Assembly: GCF_009914755.1 (NCBI RefSeq)
Contig: NC_060929.1
Source: the human T2T-CHM13v2.0 reference genome, Homo sapiens
Reading direction: 5' to 3' (one strand)
DNA length: 64,000 nucleotides
A model generated the notes under the pieces. The model searched no databases. It was not told the DNA's origin and saw only the letters and a list, made by a program, of their open reading frames with translations. Both the position numbers and the translations under genes were made by a program. The stretch's first letter is position 1. Every line of letters begins with the position of its first letter. Shown here piece after piece: positions 2,934 through 41,237 of this stretch.

Positions 2934-3252
2934 GGTTATCACCCACAGCTATAGGAGTGTGGGACTTGCTGTCTCCTGGGCTCTCACTCCTCAGGAACTG
3001 GGGCTCAGTCCTTTCTGCTCCTGGAGCCTCTCAGACTCTTCTCCTTACTGGGCCTTCCGCTCTGGCAGGGTGGGTTGCGGGGACCCCTCTGAGCTGCTAA
3101 TGCTTCCCTCCCCCCAGGTCTCAGTGAGCTGTGGACGCGGGGAATTCACAGAGGGAAACACCCCTGCTCTATCAAACACCACCCCCACAGGCCCACACGT
3201 CTTCATGTCAGTAGGCTGGAAGCAAATGGCCAAAAATGGAAATGTTTGTGCT
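2934..3252 (+). repeat. Left arm of ~320-bp diverged inverted duplication (IR1)
   Basis: Blocks such as TCAGTCCTTTCTGCTCCTGGAGCC, GGTCTCAGTGAGCTGTGG and GAAGCAAATGGCCAAAAATGGAAAT have colinear reverse complements in 4335-4670. ORFs 2887+ and 4367- share GDPS.L..LPS..VSVSCG. Confidence 0.93.
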
Positions 3253-3967
3253 GGTGCCTGACTCAGTTTCTTTGCCCCTTATTTCTCTTAGGACGTGAGT
3301 GCAGCCAGGCTCCAGACTGTTGGAGCCCCTGGAGCCTGGCCGGTCTCCTCCAGGAGGGTGCTGGGCACCGAGCCGGGGTGGCCCTGCTCTCCCTGTGACC
3401 CTGGCCGTGTGCACGTTAGGAAGTTACTCTCATGCCCTTCCCCCGAAGCTTCCCACAGACTGGTGACTGGCTGTCTGAGGACGTTAAGCGCATCATCTGC
3501 CACACGTCGTGGCTTGATGTTGACTCACACCTGGGTTCACAGAGCAAACTGACGTAGGAAACACCCAATCCAAAGAGGATGCTCCACAGAGGCCAGAGCT
3601 AAGCTCACCCACCTTCAAAGGCATCTGATAATAAAACCAGGACCTCTGGGATCAGAAAGTTCCCGTGTCGGCTGCCAGGATTTTCAAAAGATGTATTCAA
3701 CCTGTTTTAGTCTGGGATTTCATACAATATTTCACTGATTTTCCCTACAGTCGTAATACAGCTGACATTTCTCGGGAAATGAAAATCCATGTGTCCTAAC
3801 CATCTAGTACCAAAGCAGAAGAAGGCAGAGTGCATAGAATTTGCAGATCCACAGCAGCATTAATAGGCAGCTGGAGAAATGAAAGCTTGCATTGCAGGCT
3901 ATAATACAATGCTTGTATCCAACCCGGGCTTCGTGTATGTGGGTATGTTTTTCCAATATTATTATTA

Positions 3968-4312
<345 letters not shown>

Positions 4313-4334
4313 TCACTCACAATCCCACCAACCT

Positions 4335-4670
4335 AGCACAAATATTTCCATTTTTGGCCATTTGCTTCAGCCTGTTGAGATGAGGATATGAGTCTGTGTG
4401 TCACCAGAGGGGGGTCGGGGTGGGTGAGTGTTTGATAAAGTGGGGGTCTGTTTTCCTCCGTGAACTCCCCCGCCCCCACAGCTCACTGAGACCCGGTGGG
4501 AGGGAAGCGTTATCAGCGCAGAAGGGTCCCCGCCGCCTACCCCTGCCCCGTCAGGAGTCTGAGCAGACACCATGGGCTCCAGGAGCAGAAAGGACTGAAC
4601 CTCGGTTCCTGGGGAGCAAGAGCCTGGGAGAGAACAGGACGCACACTCCTATGGCCGTGGGGAGGTGACC
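4335..4670 (-). repeat. Right arm of inverted duplication IR1
   Basis: AGCACAAATATTTCCATTTTTGGCCATTTGCTTC ... GGCTCCAGGAGCAGAAAGGACTGA ... CACACTCCTAT matches the reverse complement of 2934-3252, with indels. Confidence 0.93.
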
Positions 4671-11442: not shown

Positions 11443-11829
<387 letters not shown>

Positions 11830-12483
11830 TGACAGAAGGATGGGACATAACCCCTTGGTCCCAAGGAAGCAGGTGCTCAGTGTGGCCACAGACTATCAAA
11901 CCTGGAGCGAAAGACCTGGGAGGGCAGGAGGAAGGGAAGCTTCAGGGAGGAAGCAGAGGCAGGACAGGCAAGGAGGAGGCCCAGGGCTCCAGCACAGGCA
12001 GAGCATACAGTCACTATCTGCACCTGTCCTGCCCTGCAGGCCTGGAGCCTCCTGAGGGCAGGTCCGGTACAGGTTTAACCCATGCCCTGATGCTCAGTCA
12101 GCCCAGAGGCTGGCACAGAACAGTGCCTGCCACACACTGGGTGAGTCAACCCTGAGCCCTCAACTCGGAGCCACTCCCAGCTGGAGAACACCTGCTAGGC
12201 TGCATAGGGCCTGCAGCCCCACCCCAGGAATGCAGAGGCAGCCCCACCAGCCCTCTCTCAGCTCACTCCCTGAAGATCTCCAAGGAAGACAACTGTATTG
12301 ACAGCACGGGGTACTTTTCCTGCTCCAAGAAATTAACTCATTTCAAAAGCCACGATGTTCCGGCCTCAACATGGTGTTCACAGCTAAACTGTGTGGCCTG
12401 AAGGTTCACATCTTTGGGTAAACTGAAAATCATCCTTAGCTAGCATTTGGCTGCAAGTTCAGCCTCCTGGTTCCTGAGTCCAC

Positions 12484-12539
12484 CCTGGCACGCAGAGGGG
12501 ACTGCTGATGGTCTGACTCCCATCTGCTACACATGGGGA
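12484..12539 (+). repeat. Left arm of 56-bp inverted repeat flanking the VNTR (IR2)
   Basis: CCTGGCACGCAGAGGGGACTGCTGATGGTCTGACTCCCATCTGCTACACATGGGGA is the reverse complement of 15337-15392 with 1 mismatch. Confidence 0.97.
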
Positions 12540-12600
12540 AACTGAGGTCCAGAGAGATGGTATGCCTCCCCAGGGTCACAAGTGGGACATAGCAGGGCTA
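12518..12600 (-). mobile_element. MIR fragment overlapping the left IR2 arm
   Basis: CCCATCTGCTACACATGGGGAAACTGAGGTCCAGAGAG...CCCAGGGTCACA resembles the antisense MIR core. Confidence 0.65.
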
Positions 12601-12669
12601 AATTACAAGGCCCTGGGTCTCGGGCAAGGGCTGAGGGGAATTAGTTGAGCTAATTAGTCATGCTAAGCA

Positions 12670-15223
12670 GCATTCGGCTCTCAGCTCCAAACGTCCAGGC
12701 TTGGTTCCGGCCCCGGCTGTCCTCCGAGAGTCTCTCCCCGGCGGGCAGGCGCTCTGGGCATTCGGCTCTCAGCTCCAAACGTCCAGGCTTGGTTCCGGCC
12801 CCGGCCGTCCTCCGAGAGTCTCTCCCCGGCGGGCAGGCGCTCTGGGCATTCGGCTCTCAGCTCCAAACGTCCAGGCTTGGTTCCGGCCCCGGCCGTCCTC
12901 CGAGAGTCTCTCCCCGGCGGGCAGGCGCTCTGGGCATTCGGCTCTCAGCTCCAAACGTCCAGGCTTGGTTCCGGCCCCGGCCGTCCTCCGAGAGTCTCTC
13001 CCCGGCGGGCAGGCGCTCTGGGCATTCGGCTCTCAGCTCCAAACGTCCAGGCTTGGTTCCGGCCCCGGCTGTCCTCCGAGAGTCTCTCCCCGGCGGGCAG
13101 GCGCTCTGGGCATTCGGCTCTCAGCTCCAAACGTCCAGGCTTGGTTCCGGCCCCGGCTGTCCTCCGAGAGTCTCTCCCCGGCGGGCAGGCGCTCTGGGCA
13201 TTCGGCTCTCAGCTCCAAACGTCCAGGCTTGGTTCCGGCCCCGGCTGTCCTCCGAGAGTCTCTCCCTGGCGGGCAGGCGCTCTGGGCATTCGGCTCTCAG
13301 CTCCAAACGTCCAGGCTTGGTTCCGGCCCCGGCTGTCCTCCGAGAGTCTCTCCCCGGCGGGCAGGCGCTCTGGGCATTCGGCTCTCAGCTCCAAACGTCC
13401 AGGCTTGGTTCCGGCCCCGGCTGTCCTCCGAGAGTCTCTCCCCGGCGGGCAGGCGCTCTGGGCATTCGGCTCTCAGCTCCAAACGTCCAGGCTTGGTTCC
13501 GGCCCCGGCTGTCCTCCGAGAGTCTCTCCCTGGCGGGCAGGCGCTCTGGGCATTCGGCTCTCAGCTCCAAACGTCCAGGCTTGGTTCCGGCCCCGGCTGT
13601 CCTCCGAGAGTCTCTCCCCGGCGGGCAGGCGCTCTGGGCATTCGGCTCTCAGCTCCAAACGTCCAGGCTTGGTTCCGGCCCCGGCTGTCCTCCGAGAGTC
13701 TCTCCCCGGCGGGCAGGCGCTCTGGGCATTCGGCTCTCAGCTCCAAACGTCCAGGCTTGGTTCCGGCCCCGGCTGTCCTCCGAGAGTCTCTCCCCGGCGG
13801 GCAGGCGCTCTGGGCATTCGGCTCTCAGCTCCAAACGTCCAGGCTTGGTTCCGGCCCCGGCTGTCCTCCGAGAGTCTCTCCCTGGCGGGCAGGCGCTCTG
13901 GGCATTCGGCTCTCAGCTCCAAACGTCCAGGCTTGGTTCCGGCCCCGGCTGTCCTCCGAGAGTCTCTCCCCGGCGGGCAGGCGCTCTGGGCATTCGGCTC
14001 TCAGCTCCAAACGTCCAGGCTTGGTTCCGGCCCCGGCTGTCCTCCGAGAGTCTCTCCCCGGCGGGCAGGCGCTCTGGGCATTCGGCTCTCAGCTCCAAAC
14101 GTCCAGGCTTGGTTCCGGCCCCGGCTGTCCTCCGAGAGTCTCTCCCCGGCGGGCAGGCGCTCTGGGCATTCGGCTCTCAGCTCCAAACGTCCAGGCTTGG
14201 TTCCGGCCCCGGCTGTCCTCCGAGAGTCTCTCCCCGGCGGGCAGGCGCTCTGGGCATTCGGCTCTCAGCTCCAAACGTCCAGGCTTGGTTCCGGCCCCGG
14301 CTGTCCTCCGAGAGTCTCTCCCCGGCGGGCAGGCGCTCTGGGCATTCGGCTCTCAGCTCCAAACGTCCAGGCTTGGTTCCGGCCCCGGCTGTCCTCCGAG
14401 AGTCTCTCCCCGGCGGGCAGGCGCTCTGGGCATTCGGCTCTCAGCTCCAAACGTCCAGGCTTGGTTCCGGCCCCGGCTGTCCTCCGAGAGTCTCTCCCCG
14501 GCGGGCAGGCGCTCTGGGCATTCGGCTCTCAGCTCCAAACGTCCAGGCTTGGTTCCGGCCCCGGCTGTCCTCCGAGAGTCTCTCCCCGGCGGGCAGGCGC
14601 TCTGGGCATTCGGCTCTCAGCTCCAAACGTCCAGGCTTGGTTCCGGCCCCGGCTGTCCTCCGAGAGTCTCTCCCCGGCGGGCAGGCGCTCTGGGCATTCG
14701 GCTCTCAGCTCCAAACGTCCAGGCTTGGTTCCGGCCCCGGCCGTCCTCCGAGAGTCTCTCCCCGGCGGGCAGGCGCTCTGGGCATTCGGCTCTCAGCTCC
14801 AAACGTCCAGGCTTGGTTCCGGCCCCGGCCGTCCTCCGAGAGTCTCTCCCCGGCGGGCAGGCGCTCTGGGCATTCGGCTCTCAGCTCCAAACGTCCAGGC
14901 TTGGTTCCGGCCCCGGCCGTCCTCCGAGAGTCTCTCCCCGGCGGGCAGGCGCTCTGGGCATTCGGCTCTCAGCTCCAAACGTCCAGGCTTGGTTCCGGCC
15001 CCGGCCGTCCTCCGAGAGTCTCTCCCCGGCGGGCAGGCGCTCTGGGCATTCGGCTCTCAGCTCCAAACGTCCAGGCTTGGTTCCGGCCCCGGCTGTCCTC
15101 CGAGAGTCTCTCCCCGGCGGGCAGGCGCTCTGGGCATTCGGCTCTCAGCTCCAAACGTCCAGGCTTGGTTCCGGCCCCGGCTGTCCTCCGAGAGTCTCTC
15201 CCCGGCGGGCAGGCGCTCTGGGC
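12670..15223. repeat. 88-bp CpG-rich VNTR/minisatellite, 29 complete copies
   Basis: Unit GCATTCGGCTCTCAGCTCCAAACGTCCAGGCTTGGTTCCGGCCCCGGC(T/C)GTCCTCCGAGAGTCTCTCCC(C/T)GGCGGGCAGGCGCTCTGG recurs every 88 bp (12670, 12758 ... 15134). About 69% GC, 7-9 CpG per unit. The minus-strand 61-aa ORFs in the track also recur every 88 bp. Confidence 0.99.
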
Positions 15224-15336
15224 TCCTGCCCAGGACTGTTTGGCGTGGACTTCAAAGAGCAGAACAGCTGAGCATCTGGGGCTTCCCTGGTGTCCAGTGA
15301 ACAAACGTCAAAGATCTGGCACTGAGGGGCCACCTG

Positions 15337-15392
15337 TCCCCATGTGTAGCAGATGGGAGTCAGACCATCAGCAGTCCCCTCTGCGTGTCAGG
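15337..15392 (-). repeat. Right arm of 56-bp inverted repeat flanking the VNTR (IR2)
   Basis: TCCCCATGTGTAGCAGATGGGAGTCAGACCATCAGCAGTCCCCTCTGCGTGTCAGG; the match extends imperfectly to GGACTC at 15395-15400 (partner 12476-12481). Confidence 0.97.
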
Positions 15393-15644
15393 AAGGACTC
15401 GCAGAGGCTTTCTGGGACTCGGCTTGCTCCAAGCCTGGCTGTGCACCCAGCCTCCAGGAAGGGCTGTGCTGGGCCTCAGTGGCAGCATGGCTGGGCTGGC
15501 AGGACCTACTCAGTACCACCTTGGAGTCAGGCTGGCCTGGTCATTAATTCACTCCTTCCTGCCGCCACCAACATCCACTCAGCACTTCGGATACACCGGG
15601 GGCAGAGCTGAGGGGGAGACAAAGCAAAAGAAAACGGCAGGGAT

Positions 15645-15712
15645 GCTGCGTTAGCAAGACGCAAGGAGGGGGCGCTCCGGCAGGCCTCTCGCAGGAGTGA
15701 GGCGGGGCAAGG
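15645..15712. promoter_or_regulatory. CpG-containing element with CTCF-like motif and GC box next to the VNTR
   Basis: CAAGGAGGGGGCGCT (two mismatches to the CTCF core) and GAGGCGGGGC. Motif match only. Confidence 0.3.
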
Positions 15713-16057
15713 ATTTAAGGACCCACAGCTGCAACGGATCAGACATATGTTTCGGGGGAGAAAACTTAAAAGTACAGCGAGGATTCAGTAACTGAGGCTT
15801 AACGAAGAAGCCAAAGTCATCAGGACACAGAACTCACAACTATACTGCCCCTTCTAACATCAGTGCCCCCAGACACACCTGCCTGTTCACGGGCATCCGC
15901 CCCCACTCATGCCGCTGTCTTGGTTAGACAGCGCCTGGATAACCGTTACATGCCATAAATGCACCTGCTGTTTGAGGAGGTTATCTGTGCCTGTAATAAT
16001 GTGATGCGAATCCACTGCAAGTGAAGCCACAGATGTTGTAAAAAGTTGCAGAATTTC

Positions 16058-16414
<357 letters not shown>

Positions 16415-36620: not shown

Positions 36621-38029
36621 ATGAGACTGTATGTATTCTTTGAAGGTTGGCTCTTATTATTACTACCATCAGGATAATTATCCGGCTAGCTGGGACCTCT
36701 CATGTGGGCTCCACCCTCAGTTTTCTTGCCCTATTAGACTTAAGGCTTGAAGTTCCTCCATGCAGTGGAGTCCTTCCCCTACGTTCCAGCTTTCCTGGAG
36801 AGATCCTGATTCTGTTGTCCCCTTAGCAAGAAACTGGAACCAGCCCCTGTGCACCTATCTCGGCCATGGGGTCTCACTCTAGCATGAGTGCCACTTGCCC
36901 CAGCTGCCTGGTATCGGCCTGCTGCCCTCAGGCAGAGCCACCTACTCAACCCCCACTCAAACCCACTGGTGCTTGGGTGCCAGGCGGCTGGCCAGCCCTT
37001 TCACCAGCCTCCCAGCCCCACAGTGACCCACGCTGTGGAGCCTAAGCTGTGGCCACACCAAGTCCTTTGTAGGTGGCAGGCTGGAGATGGAGAGGATTAG
37101 AGAGAGAAGATCAGAAACAAGCCTCCAGTCCGTGCAGCACCCTCTGCTTGTCGGCACTGGGAGGCAGGCCTGGCCTAAATCCTTGGTTGTTACGCCTGCA
37201 CAGTAAGCCATGTGGCCCTGATTCTGGCAGGACTGCAGAGATCCAGGTATCATGCAAAGACTAGGATCATGCAATTACAGGTTTACTGTCACCACCCCCA
37301 GCCTGCCCCACAGCTCTAGAATGGAAGCCCCAGGAGAGCAAGGACTCTGCCTGCCTCATCCACTTCATAGTGCTTGGAATGAAGTCTGACCTATGGCAGA
37401 TGCTCAAGAAACACTTGTGGAATGAACGCAGCAAACACAGTTGCCCCATCCTGTCTGCTCCCTGTCCTCCTCCACCCAGGCGTTGGCACTCGCTTTTAAG
37501 GTGAGGGGCATCACCCGGTGTCTAACGTGGCTGTGGCCATGCCAAAGTTCAGTGGCTGCTACCTGCTGGCCCTCTGTCCCTCAGTCCCTAGAGCCAAATG
37601 TCTTCTCTGACTGGGTTTTTGCTCTCAGTTGCTCAGGAACTCTGTTCTCGTCAAGGTTGACATTGGTCTAACGTTAAGCCGAAGAGCCAGTCGCATGGAG
37701 GGTCAGTGGCTGAGGACACAGGAACAGCAGAGCCAAGGCGAGCCTCCACCCTTCTCTCCCATGCAAAGCTGAGGTCACCGGTAACGACAGTAAACACTGA
37801 CTGCAAACCTGTTCTGTGCCAGGCACTGGGCTCGGCACCACGACCTGAATTATCTCCTTTAATCTGCACAGCAAACCCTGGGGTCACTATGATTAGCATC
37901 AGCCTGTTTTGTAGATGAGAAAGTGCTGGGGGGCAGTGGGTTGCAGACTGGGCATCCCTATGCCTCCCCATGTGCTGGCCCAGTCCCTAATGTCGGCGTG
38001 TGGGGTTTCCTCCTCTTCTCCCCACCTCG

Positions 38030-38471
38030 TGTTAAAGCAAACTAAATATGGCCTGAGAAGGACTCAGTACTTCTATATCTGAGTCCTTGTGGATGAACCA
38101 TAACCTAGCTTAATAGGCAGGCAAAACTGAAAACCTAACTTACTAGTATGCACCTGTAACAACAGCTGAGTCTTGGCCAATCCCAGCGGCCATCCTTCAA
38201 CCACTCATAGACCGCTGAGTGTTCAAACTGCGTTCAAATAAGGCAAACGCCGAGCTGTAACCAGTCTCACTCTTTCTGTACCGCACCTCTGATTCCTGTG
38301 TGTCACTTTACCCTTTTTGTCTATAAATTCGTTCTGACCACGAGGCACCCCTGGAGTCTCTCTGAATCTGCTGTGATTCTGGAGGCTGCTGGATTCACAA
38401 ATCATTTCTTTTTCTCTTTTTTGTTTTCTCAAGTAAACTCCATCAAATTTAACTTGCCTGAAGTTCTAACA
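38030..38471 (+). mobile_element. ERV1 solo LTR (MER57A-type)
   Basis: TG...CA termini (TGTTAAAGCAAACTAAATATGGCCTGAGAAGGACTC ... TTCTAACA), CCAAT and TATAAA boxes, AGTAAA poly(A)-like signal, 4-bp TSD CTCG/CTTG. Confidence 0.85.
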
Positions 38472-38716
38472 CTTGTTTTCAGTCTCAGGGAAAAGCTGAA
38501 CCAAGAACTGTTTTCAGCAAGTCTGAGTTTCTACCGCAGTCTCGTCACTTATCAGCCACACGGCTTAGGGAAAGCATACCACGCTCCTCACTTTCCTCTT
38601 CTATGAAATGGGGGGAATAGATGCACTTCCGTGGGGCTGCCAAGCAGATCAAACAAGAGCGCCCGTGGGCAGCACTCGTGCCAGCACAGGCCATATGGGA
38701 CAGGTGGTCAGTGAAG

Positions 38717-39098
38717 CCTCCACTCCCTCCTCCCCTGCCCCTCCTCTCTTTCCTCCTCCCCTCCCCCCTTTCCCCCTCCCCTCCCTGAGATGTGACCTCC
38801 CTTCTCCCCTCCCCCGCTCTTTCCTCCTCCCCTCCCCACCTCTATCCTCCTCCCCTCCCCCGCTCTTTCCTCCTCCCCTCCCCCCTTTTTCCTCCTCTCC
38901 TCCCCCTCCTCACTTTCCTCCTCCCCTCCCTGAGATGTGACCTCCCTCCTCCCCTCTCCCACTCTTTCTCCTTCCCCTCCCCCCTTCCCCCCCTTTCCTC
39001 CTCCCCTCCCTGAGATGTGACCTCCCTCCTCCCCTGCCCCTCCTCTCTTTCCCCCTCCCCTCTCCCCCACTTTCCCCCTCCCCTCCCTGAGATGTGAC
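38717..39098. repeat. C-rich polypyrimidine minisatellite with a fixed anchor
   Basis: Almost pure C/T strand; CCCTCCCTGAGATGTGAC occurs four times (TGAGATGTGAC at 38786, 38931, 39011, 39088). Confidence 0.93.
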
Positions 39099-39664
39099 TC
39101 TGTCCTTCGGGCTACAGCACAAGGGGAATGTGGGCTTTGGGCCTTGAAAGGGCAAAGAATCTCCCAAACAATGAGAAACTTGCTCCACTTTGGGGTGGTC
39201 TTCATGCCCATCCTGCGGGGAGGGCTGACCTCATGGGGGTCTTGGTTATTTTCAATTTATTTGTAGAACCTGAAACAGAGTTCCATTCCCAAGGAAAACC
39301 CTCATGGAAGCAGAAATAAAAACAGAATGTCTCCCTCCCTGGCGTGGGGGGGTCACAGGATCCCAACCCCAGGGAGCCGCAGGGCCCAGCCCAGGAGGGG
39401 ATAACTAGTGTTCTTTGTTGACCAGGAGGCTTAAAACACTCTCTGCTCCCTTGTTTCCATTTTCTCTTAATAAATAGGCTGGTCTGGGGAAAAAGGTTCT
39501 GGAACTGTGAAAAGTTCCCACAGTGTAACCCAAACTGTTTTTGAAGTGCAATATCAGTAAAAACGGTCATGATTTGGTTTTTGGAGATATAGGTTGACCT
39601 AATGAGTATGCGCAATAAGAAAAATATTTCTCTATAGGAGAAGAGCAACACGTAACTGGGCAGA

Positions 39665-39840
39665 CACTGGACTTGGATCTGGAAGAACCTGGATTTCCAA
39701 CCAGAACCCGCCCTTACTAGCTGTGTGATGTTTCTCAAATCACTCAGCCTCTCTGAGCTCATTTTCTTTATCCATAAGGTGGGAGTAATTATATCTGTGT
39801 AGGGAAACCGAATTTGGTAATGGATTAAAGTCTCAGCACA
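39665..39840 (+). mobile_element. MIR
   Basis: CTTACTAGCTGTGTGA...CACTCAGCCTCTCTGAGCTCATTTTCTT. Confidence 0.7.
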
Positions 39841-39967
39841 AGATAAGCATGCTACCCACTCCACACCATCAAAGTCTGCCTTCTCCTCTCATGCAGATGT
39901 TTTCCAAAGGCCCTGCCCACTGCCATTTGTCGGAAACAGAAATTCACTCCATTAACAGAGCAGACAG

Positions 39968-40419
<452 letters not shown>

Positions 40420-41237
40420 TCAGCTTCTCCAGTAAAATGAGGACTTTATCTCAGGGCCCTTCACTTTCCCCAGTCCTGAGATTGTATAAAAACGTAGCTA
40501 ATCCTTATGCCCACATCTCCAAGCAAGATTTTGAAGAGCGCACAGTGTCTGGATAATAGGTGAGCCCCTGGGGCTCCGAGAAGGACAGTTCCCAGCTCTG
40601 TGCAAGGAACATGCTGTCTGAAGGGACTCACCCAGCACCCAGCACCTTCTAGGTACAAAGCTCCTGCACGTTCTTGCCCGAATCCTGACACTTCCCACAG
40701 GCAGCTGCATTTTCCCAAAAGCCACTCTGACTGGCTCTTCTGCTTAACGTTAGACACGATGTCAGCCTTGACAGTAACAGAGCTGCTGAGCAACTGAGAG
40801 CAAAAACAAGTCAGAAAAGACATTTGGCTCTGGGGACTGAGGGCCAGAGGGCCAGCAGGTAGCAGCTACGTGGGCAGCTCAGACAAGCAAGCGTGCCCAA
40901 AGGTGGCCCATTCAGAGGCACATCATCCCCCCGCTGTCTGCACGTCCCTGAGCCACAGCAACCCAGCAGGCCGGGAGCTGGGAGGGACGGGACCTGTCAG
41001 CACCTACCCACTCACCCACCCCCACGTGGTCGCCATCCATCAGCCTCCCCATGTTTCTGGAAGATGCAGGGAATAAAATCACTCTGCATTTCCACGTAAC
41101 GCCGGGGACTGTCACTGAAGACCCCAAACTGTCCCTTGTCCTCTGGCAATACAGTTAGGATAAATTACCAGACTATGTCATTATAATTGTAGTATAATTA
41201 CTGAGTATAATTATAAATAATTATAAATCATGATTAT

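What the first reader, a model, noticed from the sequence alone, without database searches (positions are those of the whole stretch)
12476..15400. CpG-rich 88-bp array enclosed by a near-perfect 56-bp inverted repeat
Seen: 12484-12539 and 15337-15392 are reverse complements with 1 mismatch, lying ~130 bp left and ~115 bp right of the 29-copy array. The left arm runs into a MIR-like relic that continues only on the left, so the right arm looks like the derived copy. Inference: with one repeat unit the arms would be ~330 bp apart, so the array seems to have expanded inside a pre-existing stem-loop. The arms could close a 2.8-kb loop in RNA or ssDNA, act as recombination sites that flip the cassette, or have promoted the expansion. 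One mismatch in 56 bp implies recent origin or arm-to-arm conversion. I know of no described element with this layout.
Basis: partly seen in the sequence, partly recalled or inferred. Interest (0 to 1): 0.8.

Follow-up and report, generated by a model that had tools for sequence, protein, structure and literature searches.

The report
Intronic minisatellite between short inverted duplicate
A very uniform 88-base repeat array in an intron of the human COL23A1 gene really does sit between two short mirror-image copies of one sequence, but this looks like two ordinary kinds of replication accident landing together, not a new kind of genetic element.

Summary
Arms 12476-12539 and 15337-15400 are 64 bp reverse complements with 3 mismatches, all in the outer 13 bp; the inner 51 bp are perfect. 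They enclose an 88-bp x 29.0 array (12670-15223, 99% matches, GC 69.5%, CpG o/e 0.78). Arms and unit occur nowhere else in the 3.1-Gb assembly, so the dispersed-repeat refuter fails. A MIR-like relic runs unbroken across the inner edge of the left arm (12518-12600). The right flank has no such match, so the right arm is the derived copy.

The layout is not very unusual. In 264 kb around the locus there are four locus-unique inverted duplications (54-140 bp, 89-95%, spacers 0.75-3 kb). Four other homogeneous VNTRs there have no flanking inverted repeat.

Best reading (0.6): an ordinary GC-rich subtelomeric minisatellite plus an incidental template-switch-type inverted micro-duplication, with no shown function.

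The arms need not be recent: 3 mismatches in 64 fit roughly 5-68 My. The order of events, inversion alleles and an RNA duplex could not be tested, because no primate or population data were available.

Interest is low.

The parts
12476..12539 (+). Left arm of the inverted repeat (the source copy). Its inner 51 bp, 12489-12539, pair perfectly with 15337-15387.
   Evidence: Unique in the genome apart from the right arm.
12518..12600 (+). MIR-like SINE relic. It starts inside the left arm and runs on into the interior (nhmmer envelope 12497-12617; single-sequence matches span 12511-12632).
   Evidence: a profile built from 43 copies in the 264-kb sample matches here at model positions 194-276, E 5.8e-9. 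Searches agree. The name 'MIR' comes from my recall of the consensus, not from a library.
12540..12669 (.). 130-bp single-copy spacer between the left arm and the array.
   Evidence: No homology to the reverse complement of 15224-15336.
12670..15223 (+). 88-bp x 29.0 tandem array, GC 69.5%. Only two positions vary, and both are CpG/TpG. Position 49 is C in units 2-4 and 24-27. Position 70 is T in units 7, 10 and 14. The first and last units equal the consensus.
   Evidence: The unit is found only at this locus, always on the + strand (13 matches, 1 candidate region).
15224..15336 (.). 113-bp single-copy spacer between the array and the right arm.
15337..15400 (-). Right arm: the derived reverse-complement copy of 12476-12539. 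Mismatches at 15388, 15393 and 15394.
   Evidence: There is no MIR-like continuation beside it.
15378..15407 (.). Small local palindrome across the outer edge of the right arm. The 8-mer at 15378-15385 is the reverse complement of the 8-mer at 15400-15407, which also repeats 12491-12498 of the left arm in direct orientation. It may be a footprint of the return switch (inference only).
   Evidence: Read directly. By my own arithmetic the chance of such an 8-mer is about 0.04.
11500..11749 (-). Context: an Alu that forms an outer inverted pair with the Alu at 16059-16316 (+). This pair also encloses the array, 4.3-4.5 kb apart.
   Evidence: pairs I1, I3-I5; SRP-like Rfam matches below gathering score. 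The hub table masks 11459-11743 and 16053-16358.

Best explanation
These are two ordinary, probably neutral mutational products that happen to sit together in a COL23A1 intron, 3.1 Mb from the 5q end.

(1) The array is a GC-rich subtelomeric minisatellite (VNTR). It began as one 88-bp segment bounded by a 2-bp 'GC' microhomology. It is kept uniform by replication slippage, unequal exchange or conversion.

(2) The arms are a single local inverted micro-duplication. A nascent strand left its template near 15336, copied 51-64 bp of the opposite strand of the MIR-bearing left flank (12539 back to about 12489-12476), and then returned near 15388-15401. This is the '3-2-1-4' outcome of the four-point template-switch model, but over at least 331 bp.

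No function is required. The arms can pair in single-stranded DNA or in the pre-mRNA, but nothing shows that they do.

Shown: the anatomy, the uniqueness of arms and unit, which arm is the source, and the local base rate of such inverted repeats. Inferred: the template-switch mechanism, the order of events (I put the inverted repeat older than the present array at about 65%), and neutrality.
For: Anatomy.

The arms and the unit are single-locus.

The source arm is fixed by MIR-like continuity across 12539/12540 and by the lack of any match in the right flank.

The array fits the class described by Linthorst 2020 (PMC7608644; passages read): VNTRs with GC >60% and units >15 bp are 21-fold enriched within 5 Mb of chromosome ends. 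This array has GC 69.5% and an 88-bp unit, and lies 3.1 Mb from the end (contig length).

Template switching is a documented one-step source of new inverted repeats in human DNA. It also perfects near-perfect ones, and the repeat-creating type makes up 31% of high-confidence human-chimp events (PMC5453318; passages read).

Base rate: of 26 inverted pairs in 264 kb with >=88% identity, >=40 bp and spacer <=10 kb, 22 are high-copy (52-186 copies). Four are two-copy, and all four are unique genome-wide.

Of 9 arrays tested, only this one has an inverted repeat within 500-bp flanks: score 113 against <=29 for the rest, with a random median of 21. The 30x12, 60x24, 47x12 and 31x37 VNTRs expanded without one.

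The mismatches cluster at the outer end: P = 0.027 for a perfect run of >=51 given 3 mismatches in 64. That fits a homeologous return point or later perfecting of the core.
Against: Two of the 4 locus-unique inverted repeats in the 264-kb sample enclose a tandem array of >=200 bp. Random placement predicts 0.22 in total, or 0.135 for the three non-index pairs, of which one does. A causal link between inverted repeats and arrays is therefore not excluded, although the sample is tiny.

Published short-range template switches act over tens of bp. This one needs at least 331 bp.

The array is roughly centred in the ancestral loop (130 vs 113 bp), as a loop-targeted process would predict.

No outgroup or population data were available, so the derived state of the right arm, the order of events and neutrality rest on inference.

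Confidence: 0.6

Rival explanations
1. The inverted repeat came first and caused the array. A 64-bp stem with a 331-bp loop stalled replication or was cut in the loop, and the repair duplicated the 88-bp loop segment. The array then grew inside the stem-loop.
For: The arms pair (62 bp) in the minimum-energy fold of the whole 2.9-kb segment, as DNA and as RNA. The duplex energy is -84 kcal/mol for DNA and -134 for RNA. The array is nearly centred between the arms. The units are far more uniform than the arms: 10 single-base differences in 29 units, all at CpG, against 3/64 in the arms. The inverted repeat is therefore nominally older than the present array. Two of 4 unique inverted repeats enclose arrays, against 0.22 expected.
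Against: Eight of 9 arrays in the same 264 kb, including four equally homogeneous VNTRs, have no flanking inverted repeat, so such a repeat is not needed. From recalled yeast and human work on inverted Alu pairs, hairpin or cruciform instability falls steeply once the spacer exceeds some tens of bp, and 331 bp is far beyond that. Excluding the index case, 1 of 3 other inverted repeats encloses an array, against 0.135 expected (P about 0.13), which is not significant. The array's uniformity dates its last homogenisation, not its birth.
Confidence: 0.15
2. The arms are the scar of a past inversion of the interior. A staggered break across the 64-bp site left one copy at each end in inverted orientation, so the cassette has flipped once.
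For: The layout fits: one arm is contiguous with the interior (the MIR-like relic runs from the left arm into 12540-12632), and the other is attached only to outside sequence. Homology ends abruptly at both arm ends. That inversion breakpoints carry inverted duplications is recalled from Drosophila breakpoint studies. I did not read a paper on this; PMC6278893 was seen only in a search listing.
Against: Copies made from the two strands of one duplex start identical and should diverge evenly. Instead the 3 mismatches lie in the outer 13 bp (P = 0.027). Neither outer flank belongs to a repeat family that would let the ancestral junction be rebuilt, so there is no positive evidence.
Confidence: 0.1
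3. The arms have a present-day function. Either they form a 64-bp RNA duplex that loops out 2.8 kb of the COL23A1 intron (an ADAR substrate, or an effect on splicing), or they are recombination sites that invert the array.
For: Both arms lie in one intron of a minus-strand gene (hub gene table). The predicted RNA duplex is -134 kcal/mol and is present in the minimum-energy fold.
Against: No Rfam family matches 12200-15600. A longer inverted Alu pair (11500-11749 / 16059-16316) encloses the same region and would be the more usual double-stranded RNA former. A 51-bp perfect core is well below the hundreds of bp that I recall as usual for inversions mediated by inverted repeats. Three older, equally unique inverted repeats (89-91%) lie nearby as apparent relics. 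No expression, editing or haplotype data could be consulted.
Confidence: 0.05
4. It is a mobile element with terminal inverted repeats and an internal tandem array (foldback- or MITE-like), or two independent inverted MIR copies patched by gene conversion.
For: The layout looks superficially like a foldback element: inverted termini around internal tandem repeats (Tetris, PMC4079207; seen only as a search listing and the start of its abstract).
Against: Arms and unit are single-locus in 3.1 Gb. There is no target-site duplication: the bases outside the two arms differ (read). The left arm is part of a MIR-like relic that continues into the interior. There is no MIR-like match on either strand of 15224-15800, even with filters off and E <= 10.
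Confidence: 0.02

Closest known systems
GC-rich subtelomeric VNTRs / minisatellites (Linthorst et al. 2020, PMC7608644)
   Same: Head-to-tail array with an 88-bp unit, GC 69.5%, intronic, 3.1 Mb from the chromosome end, with very uniform units.
   Different: Copy-number polymorphism was not checked here. The flanking 64-bp inverted duplication is not a feature of the class. This array is not among the 467 human-specific VNTRs of Course 2021, whose Table S1 lists two other COL23A1 arrays.
Template-switch mutations that create inverted repeats (four-point model, type 3-2-1-4; Loytynoja & Goldman 2017, PMC5453318)
   Same: A fragment is the exact reverse complement of nearby sequence, the source copy sits in its ancestral context, and the borders are abrupt. 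The same process can perfect a near-perfect inverted repeat.
   Different: Published events act over tens of bp. Here the source and the copy were at least 331 bp apart and are now 2.8 kb apart. The derived state was not verified against an outgroup.
Foldback or TIR transposons with internal tandem repeats (e.g. Tetris of Drosophila virilis, PMC4079207; listing only)
   Same: Inverted termini around a central tandem array.
   Different: Single copy in the genome, no target-site duplication, and the arms are made of host MIR-like DNA that continues inward. It is not a member.
Inverted Alu pairs in introns (double-stranded RNA / ADAR substrates; recalled)
   Same: Two reverse-complementary segments in one intron, a few kb apart, able to form a long RNA duplex.
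   Different: The arms are 64 bp against about 300 bp, single-copy, and 95% rather than about 80-89% complementary. Editing was not examined. A real inverted Alu pair lies just outside the arms.
Inversions with inverted duplications at their breakpoints (staggered-break model; recalled from Drosophila work)
   Same: A short inverted duplication bounds a segment, with one copy contiguous with the interior.
   Different: There is no evidence that the interior was ever inverted, and the mismatches are unevenly placed.

Membership tests
GC-rich subtelomeric VNTR | Head-to-tail array with a unit >15 bp | tested here: met
   TRF: period 88, 29.0 copies, 99% matches, 0 indels.
GC-rich subtelomeric VNTR | GC content >60% | tested here: met
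   GC 0.695. The threshold is from PMC7608644.
GC-rich subtelomeric VNTR | Within 5 Mb of a chromosome end | tested here: met
   The array starts at C5:178,944,670 and the contig is 182,045,439 bases long, so it lies 3.1 Mb from the end.
GC-rich subtelomeric VNTR | Copy number varies between individuals | not testable with these tools
   Only one human assembly is held. COL23A1 was not found in the supplements held for PMC11701250 and PMC7608644.
Template-switch inverted duplication (four-point model) | The fragment is the reverse complement of nearby sequence and has abrupt borders | tested here: met
   64 bp at 95%, with a perfect 51-bp core and no extension.
Template-switch inverted duplication (four-point model) | One copy is in its ancestral context and the other is derived | tested here: met
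   MIR-like continuity runs across 12539/12540, and the right flank has none.
Template-switch inverted duplication (four-point model) | The copy is absent from the ancestral (outgroup) sequence | not testable with these tools
   No primate genomes are held.
Template-switch inverted duplication (four-point model) | Short range (tens of bp) as in the published set | tested here: not met
   The minimum distance is 331 bp with one unit, and it is 2797 bp now. I therefore say it 'works like' this kind and do not file it as a member of the published short-range set.
TIR / foldback transposon with internal tandem repeats | Several copies in the genome | tested here: not met
   Arms: 2 of 2 matches are this locus. 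Unit: 1 candidate region.
TIR / foldback transposon with internal tandem repeats | Target-site duplication outside the arms | tested here: not met
   The bases just outside 12476 and 15400 differ (read).
Segment that inverts by recombination between inverted repeats | Both orientations are seen in a population | not testable with these tools
   No haplotype panel is available. All 13 unit matches are on the + strand in this assembly.
Intronic inverted-repeat dsRNA (ADAR substrate) | Long RNA duplex between the arms | tested here: inconclusive
   Predicted only: -134 kcal/mol, with 62 arm-to-arm pairs in the minimum-energy fold. No editing or cross-linking data.

The most novel reading that the evidence does not exclude
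Short, locus-unique inverted duplications may be seeds for minisatellite birth. In this reading the loop of a template-switch-made stem-loop is a preferred site for the first tandem duplication and for later expansion. 'Inverted-repeat-enclosed VNTRs' would then form a recurrent class in subtelomeric human DNA, with this locus and the 37555-40866 locus as two examples within 64 kb.
Probability: 0.1. Interest if true: 0.6.

Novelty: new member of a known kind. Interest (0 to 1): 0.2.

Why it matters
If the coincidence is only chance, the locus is one more polymorphism-prone intronic VNTR of COL23A1, with a neat example of a longer-range inverted micro-duplication beside it. It would matter only if a genome-wide test showed that unique inverted repeats are enriched around VNTRs. 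That would give a concrete, testable mechanism for how minisatellites are born, which is still poorly understood.

Two results here can be reused. First, 'near-perfect' arms of about 60 bp say little about age. Second, this region carries about one locus-unique inverted duplication per 66 kb, and that rate is the baseline any such claim has to beat.

Tried and rejected
- Dispersed-repeat origin of the arms: rejected.
- TIR or foldback transposon: rejected, because the locus is single-copy, there is no target-site duplication, and the arm is part of a MIR-like relic.
- Two independent inverted MIR copies joined by gene conversion: rejected as far as detection allows, because the profile does not match 15224-15800.
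- Longer, weaker homology beyond the arms: none.
- Known RNA families: none in 12200-15600.
- Coding potential: the + strand is open in all three frames over the array (ORFs of 983, 856 and 807 aa). This is because the unit has no stop codon on that strand. The three Pfam matches have no stretch that passes on its own, so they are repeat artefacts.
- A bacterial promoter/terminator scan has no bearing on human DNA and is disregarded.
- A larger base-rate sample failed.
- Literature: searches for COL23A1 with VNTR or tandem repeat, for '88-bp' with tandem repeat and 5q35, for minisatellites flanked by inverted repeats and for VNTR with inverted repeat and stem-loop found no description of this array or layout.
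- The COL23A1 epivariation of Garg 2020 lies, by my coordinate arithmetic, about 100 kb outside the window.
- Supplements: COL23A1 is not in the files held for PMC11701250 and PMC7608644. A coordinate search in PMC7608644 hit only chr3. PMC6859368 and PMC8026704 are not held. One supplementary file of PMC8327921 was not searchable. bioRxiv supplements are closed. These unseen files may list the array.
Full report
**What is there**

The sequence, the repeat finder and a local alignment agree. Arms 12476-12539 and 15337-15400 are reverse complements over 64 bp with three mismatches, at 12482, 12483 and 12488. The inner 51 bp (12489-12539 / 15337-15387) are perfect. Homology stops abruptly at both ends under strict and lax scoring.

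Between the arms lie 130 bp of single-copy DNA, then an 88-bp x 29.0 array at 12670-15223 (99% matches, no indels), then 113 bp of single-copy DNA. The array has GC 69.5%, 236 CpGs and CpG o/e 0.78. The flanks have o/e 0.16 and 0.34.

Only two unit positions vary, and both are CpG/TpG. Position 49 is C in units 2-4 and 24-27. Position 70 is T in units 7, 10 and 14. Nineteen of 29 units, including the first and the last two, equal the consensus.

**Is it more than chance, and is it a dispersed repeat?**

Among 170 inverted pairs in the window, this is the only one at >=95% identity. In the window's own 3.1-Gb assembly a 76-base query over the left arm finds two places, which are the two arms. 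Queries with either whole flank find the opposite arm and otherwise only short old-repeat matches: chr4, 35 bp, and chr17, 158 bp at 77%. The 88-bp unit is found only here, always on the + strand (13 matches, one candidate region). That tool skips very common words, so its counts are lower bounds.

**Which arm is the original?**

Relaxed BLAST and nhmmer match 12511-12632 to old repeat copies elsewhere. I then built a profile from 43 such copies in 264 kb. Its consensus looks like the MIR SINE as I recall it; no repeat library was available to name it. The profile aligns to 12518-12600 (model positions 194-276, E 5.8e-9) in one unbroken alignment across the inner arm edge at 12539/12540. It finds nothing on either strand of 15224-15800, even with all filters off.

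This also argues against two independent inverted MIRs patched by conversion. The outer 40 bp of the arm are not detectably MIR-like. For that reason I could not use the outer flanks to separate a copy-insertion from an inversion scar.

**How old are the arms?**

By my calculation, with recalled substitution rates of 0.5-1 x 10^-9 per site per year:
- 3 mismatches in 64 gives K = 0.048, or about 24 My at 1e-9 (95% range 5-68 My).
- 1 in 56 gives 9 My (range 0.2-50).
- 0 in 51 allows anything up to 36 My.

'Near-perfect' therefore does not imply recent origin. The three mismatches are clustered: P = 0.027 for a perfect run of >=51 given 3 mismatches in 64. This fits either a homeologous landing site for the return switch or later perfecting of the core. 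Template switching is reported to do the latter (PMC5453318; passages read).

An 8-mer at 15400-15407, just outside the right arm, repeats 12491-12498 of the left arm and pairs with 15378-15385 (read). By my arithmetic the chance of this is about 0.04. It may be a footprint of the event, but that is inference.

The array has no non-CpG differences in about 2,100 non-CpG bases and at least two CpG events. With recalled rates and my own arithmetic, this puts the coalescence of the present units in the last few million years. That dates the last homogenisation, not the birth of the array. On balance (about 65%) the inverted repeat predates the present expansion, but no outgroup was available to confirm this.

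**Is the layout unusual?**

I analysed the resulting 264 contiguous kb.

- There are 385 inverted pairs with spacers <=10 kb. Of these, 26 have >=88% identity and >=40 bp.
- Twenty-two of the 26 belong to high-copy repeats (52-186 copies in the sample). Four are two-copy.
- The four are 3203-3255/4331-4383 (54 bp, 88.9%), this one, 37555-37692/40729-40866 (140 bp, 90.7%), and one 132 kb beyond the window's end (59 bp, 89.8%).
- All four are unique in the whole genome.

Small local inverted duplications are therefore a recurring background feature here, at about one per 66 kb. The other three are older, with K of 0.10-0.12.

I also tested nine tandem arrays for an inverted repeat between their 500-bp flanks. 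Only this one has one: score 113, against <=29 for the others and a median of 21 for 400 random intervals. The 11 random intervals that reached 113 I take to be Alu pairs; I did not inspect them. Four other highly uniform VNTRs (30x12, 60x24, 47x12, 31x37) expanded without any inverted repeat.

Against my reading, two of the four unique inverted repeats enclose an array of >=200 bp: this one, and a degenerate CT-rich 80-bp x 5 array at 38723-39098. Random placement predicts 0.22. Without the index case, one of three does so against 0.135 expected. That is suggestive, but not significant in so small a sample.

**Other checks**

- The arms could pair. The duplex energy is -134 kcal/mol as RNA and -84 as DNA, and 62 arm-to-arm pairs appear in the minimum-energy fold of the whole 2.9 kb in both. 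This shows capacity only.
- Rfam has nothing in 12200-15600. It marks the Alus at 11500-11749 (-) and 16059-16316 (+), which form a longer inverted pair around the same region.
- The + strand, antisense to COL23A1, is open in all three frames across the array, because the unit has no stop codon on that strand. The Pfam matches are repeat artefacts.
- No target-site duplication flanks the arms.

**Explanation**

I commit, at 0.6, to two ordinary mutational products at one site.

The array belongs to the GC-rich, long-unit VNTR class, which is 21-fold enriched within 5 Mb of chromosome ends (PMC7608644; passages read). That paper also notes fewer such VNTRs on 5q. This array lies 3.1 Mb from the end.

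The arms are best explained by one replication or repair template switch. It copied 51-64 bp of the opposite strand of the left flank into the right flank. This is the inverted-repeat-creating outcome of the four-point model, but over at least 331 bp instead of tens of bp. I therefore say it works like that process and do not file it in the published short-range set.

Rivals:
- The stem-loop seeded the array (0.15).
- The arms are the scar of a staggered-break inversion (0.10).
- A present-day RNA or recombination function (0.05).
- A mobile element (0.02; effectively refuted).

**Comparison with print**

Searches found no description of this array or of a VNTR enclosed by a unique inverted repeat in human DNA. 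Table S1 of Course 2021 lists two other COL23A1 VNTRs as human-specific, and not this one. The closest layout in print is foldback transposons with internal tandem repeats (Tetris; search listing only), and this locus fails their defining features. Several supplements that might list the array could not be seen (bioRxiv supplements are closed).

**Verdict**

The feature is real and was accurately described. The claims of recency, function and a new kind of element are not supported by anything I could test. Interest 0.2; new member of known kinds.

Noticed in passing
window 37555-37692 and 40729-40866 (enclosing 38723-39098): A second non-Alu, genome-unique inverted duplication (140 bp, 90.7%, 3036 bp apart) lies in the same window. 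It also encloses a tandem array, a degenerate CT-rich 80-bp x 5 repeat with 76% matches.
   Followed up: partly
window 3203-3255 / 4331-4383; L033:1955-2013 / L033:2765-2823: Two more genome-unique short inverted duplications (54 bp at 88.9%, spacer 1075; 59 bp at 89.8%, spacer 751), with no tandem array inside. Together with the other two they give about one such inverted repeat per 66 kb of COL23A1.
   Followed up: partly
window 12660-15611, + strand: An ATG-started ORF of 983 aa, plus two further ORFs of more than 800 aa in the other frames, run through the array antisense to COL23A1. The 88-bp unit has no stop codon on this strand. The Pfam matches are repeat artefacts.
   Followed up: yes
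window 11500-11749 (-) and 16059-16316 (+): An inverted Alu pair (77-89% complementary over 36-111 bp pieces) lies just outside the 64-bp arms, 4.3-4.5 kb apart. It encloses the whole structure and would be the more conventional double-stranded RNA former in the intron.
   Followed up: no
L027:9416 to L028:859; L020:2483-2842: Two other very uniform VNTRs lie in COL23A1 outside the window (60 bp x 24.1 at 99%; 30 bp x 12.0 at 99%). Neither has a flanking inverted repeat. The 47-bp and 30/31-bp arrays listed as human-specific by Course 2021 are also in this stretch.
   Followed up: partly
window 12670-15223: The ancestral-looking CpG variant at unit position 49 survives in two blocks (units 2-4 and 24-27). 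They lie on either side of a long run of the TpG variant, while the outermost units carry TpG. The array edges are as uniform as its centre, which is unusual for an old array.
   Followed up: no
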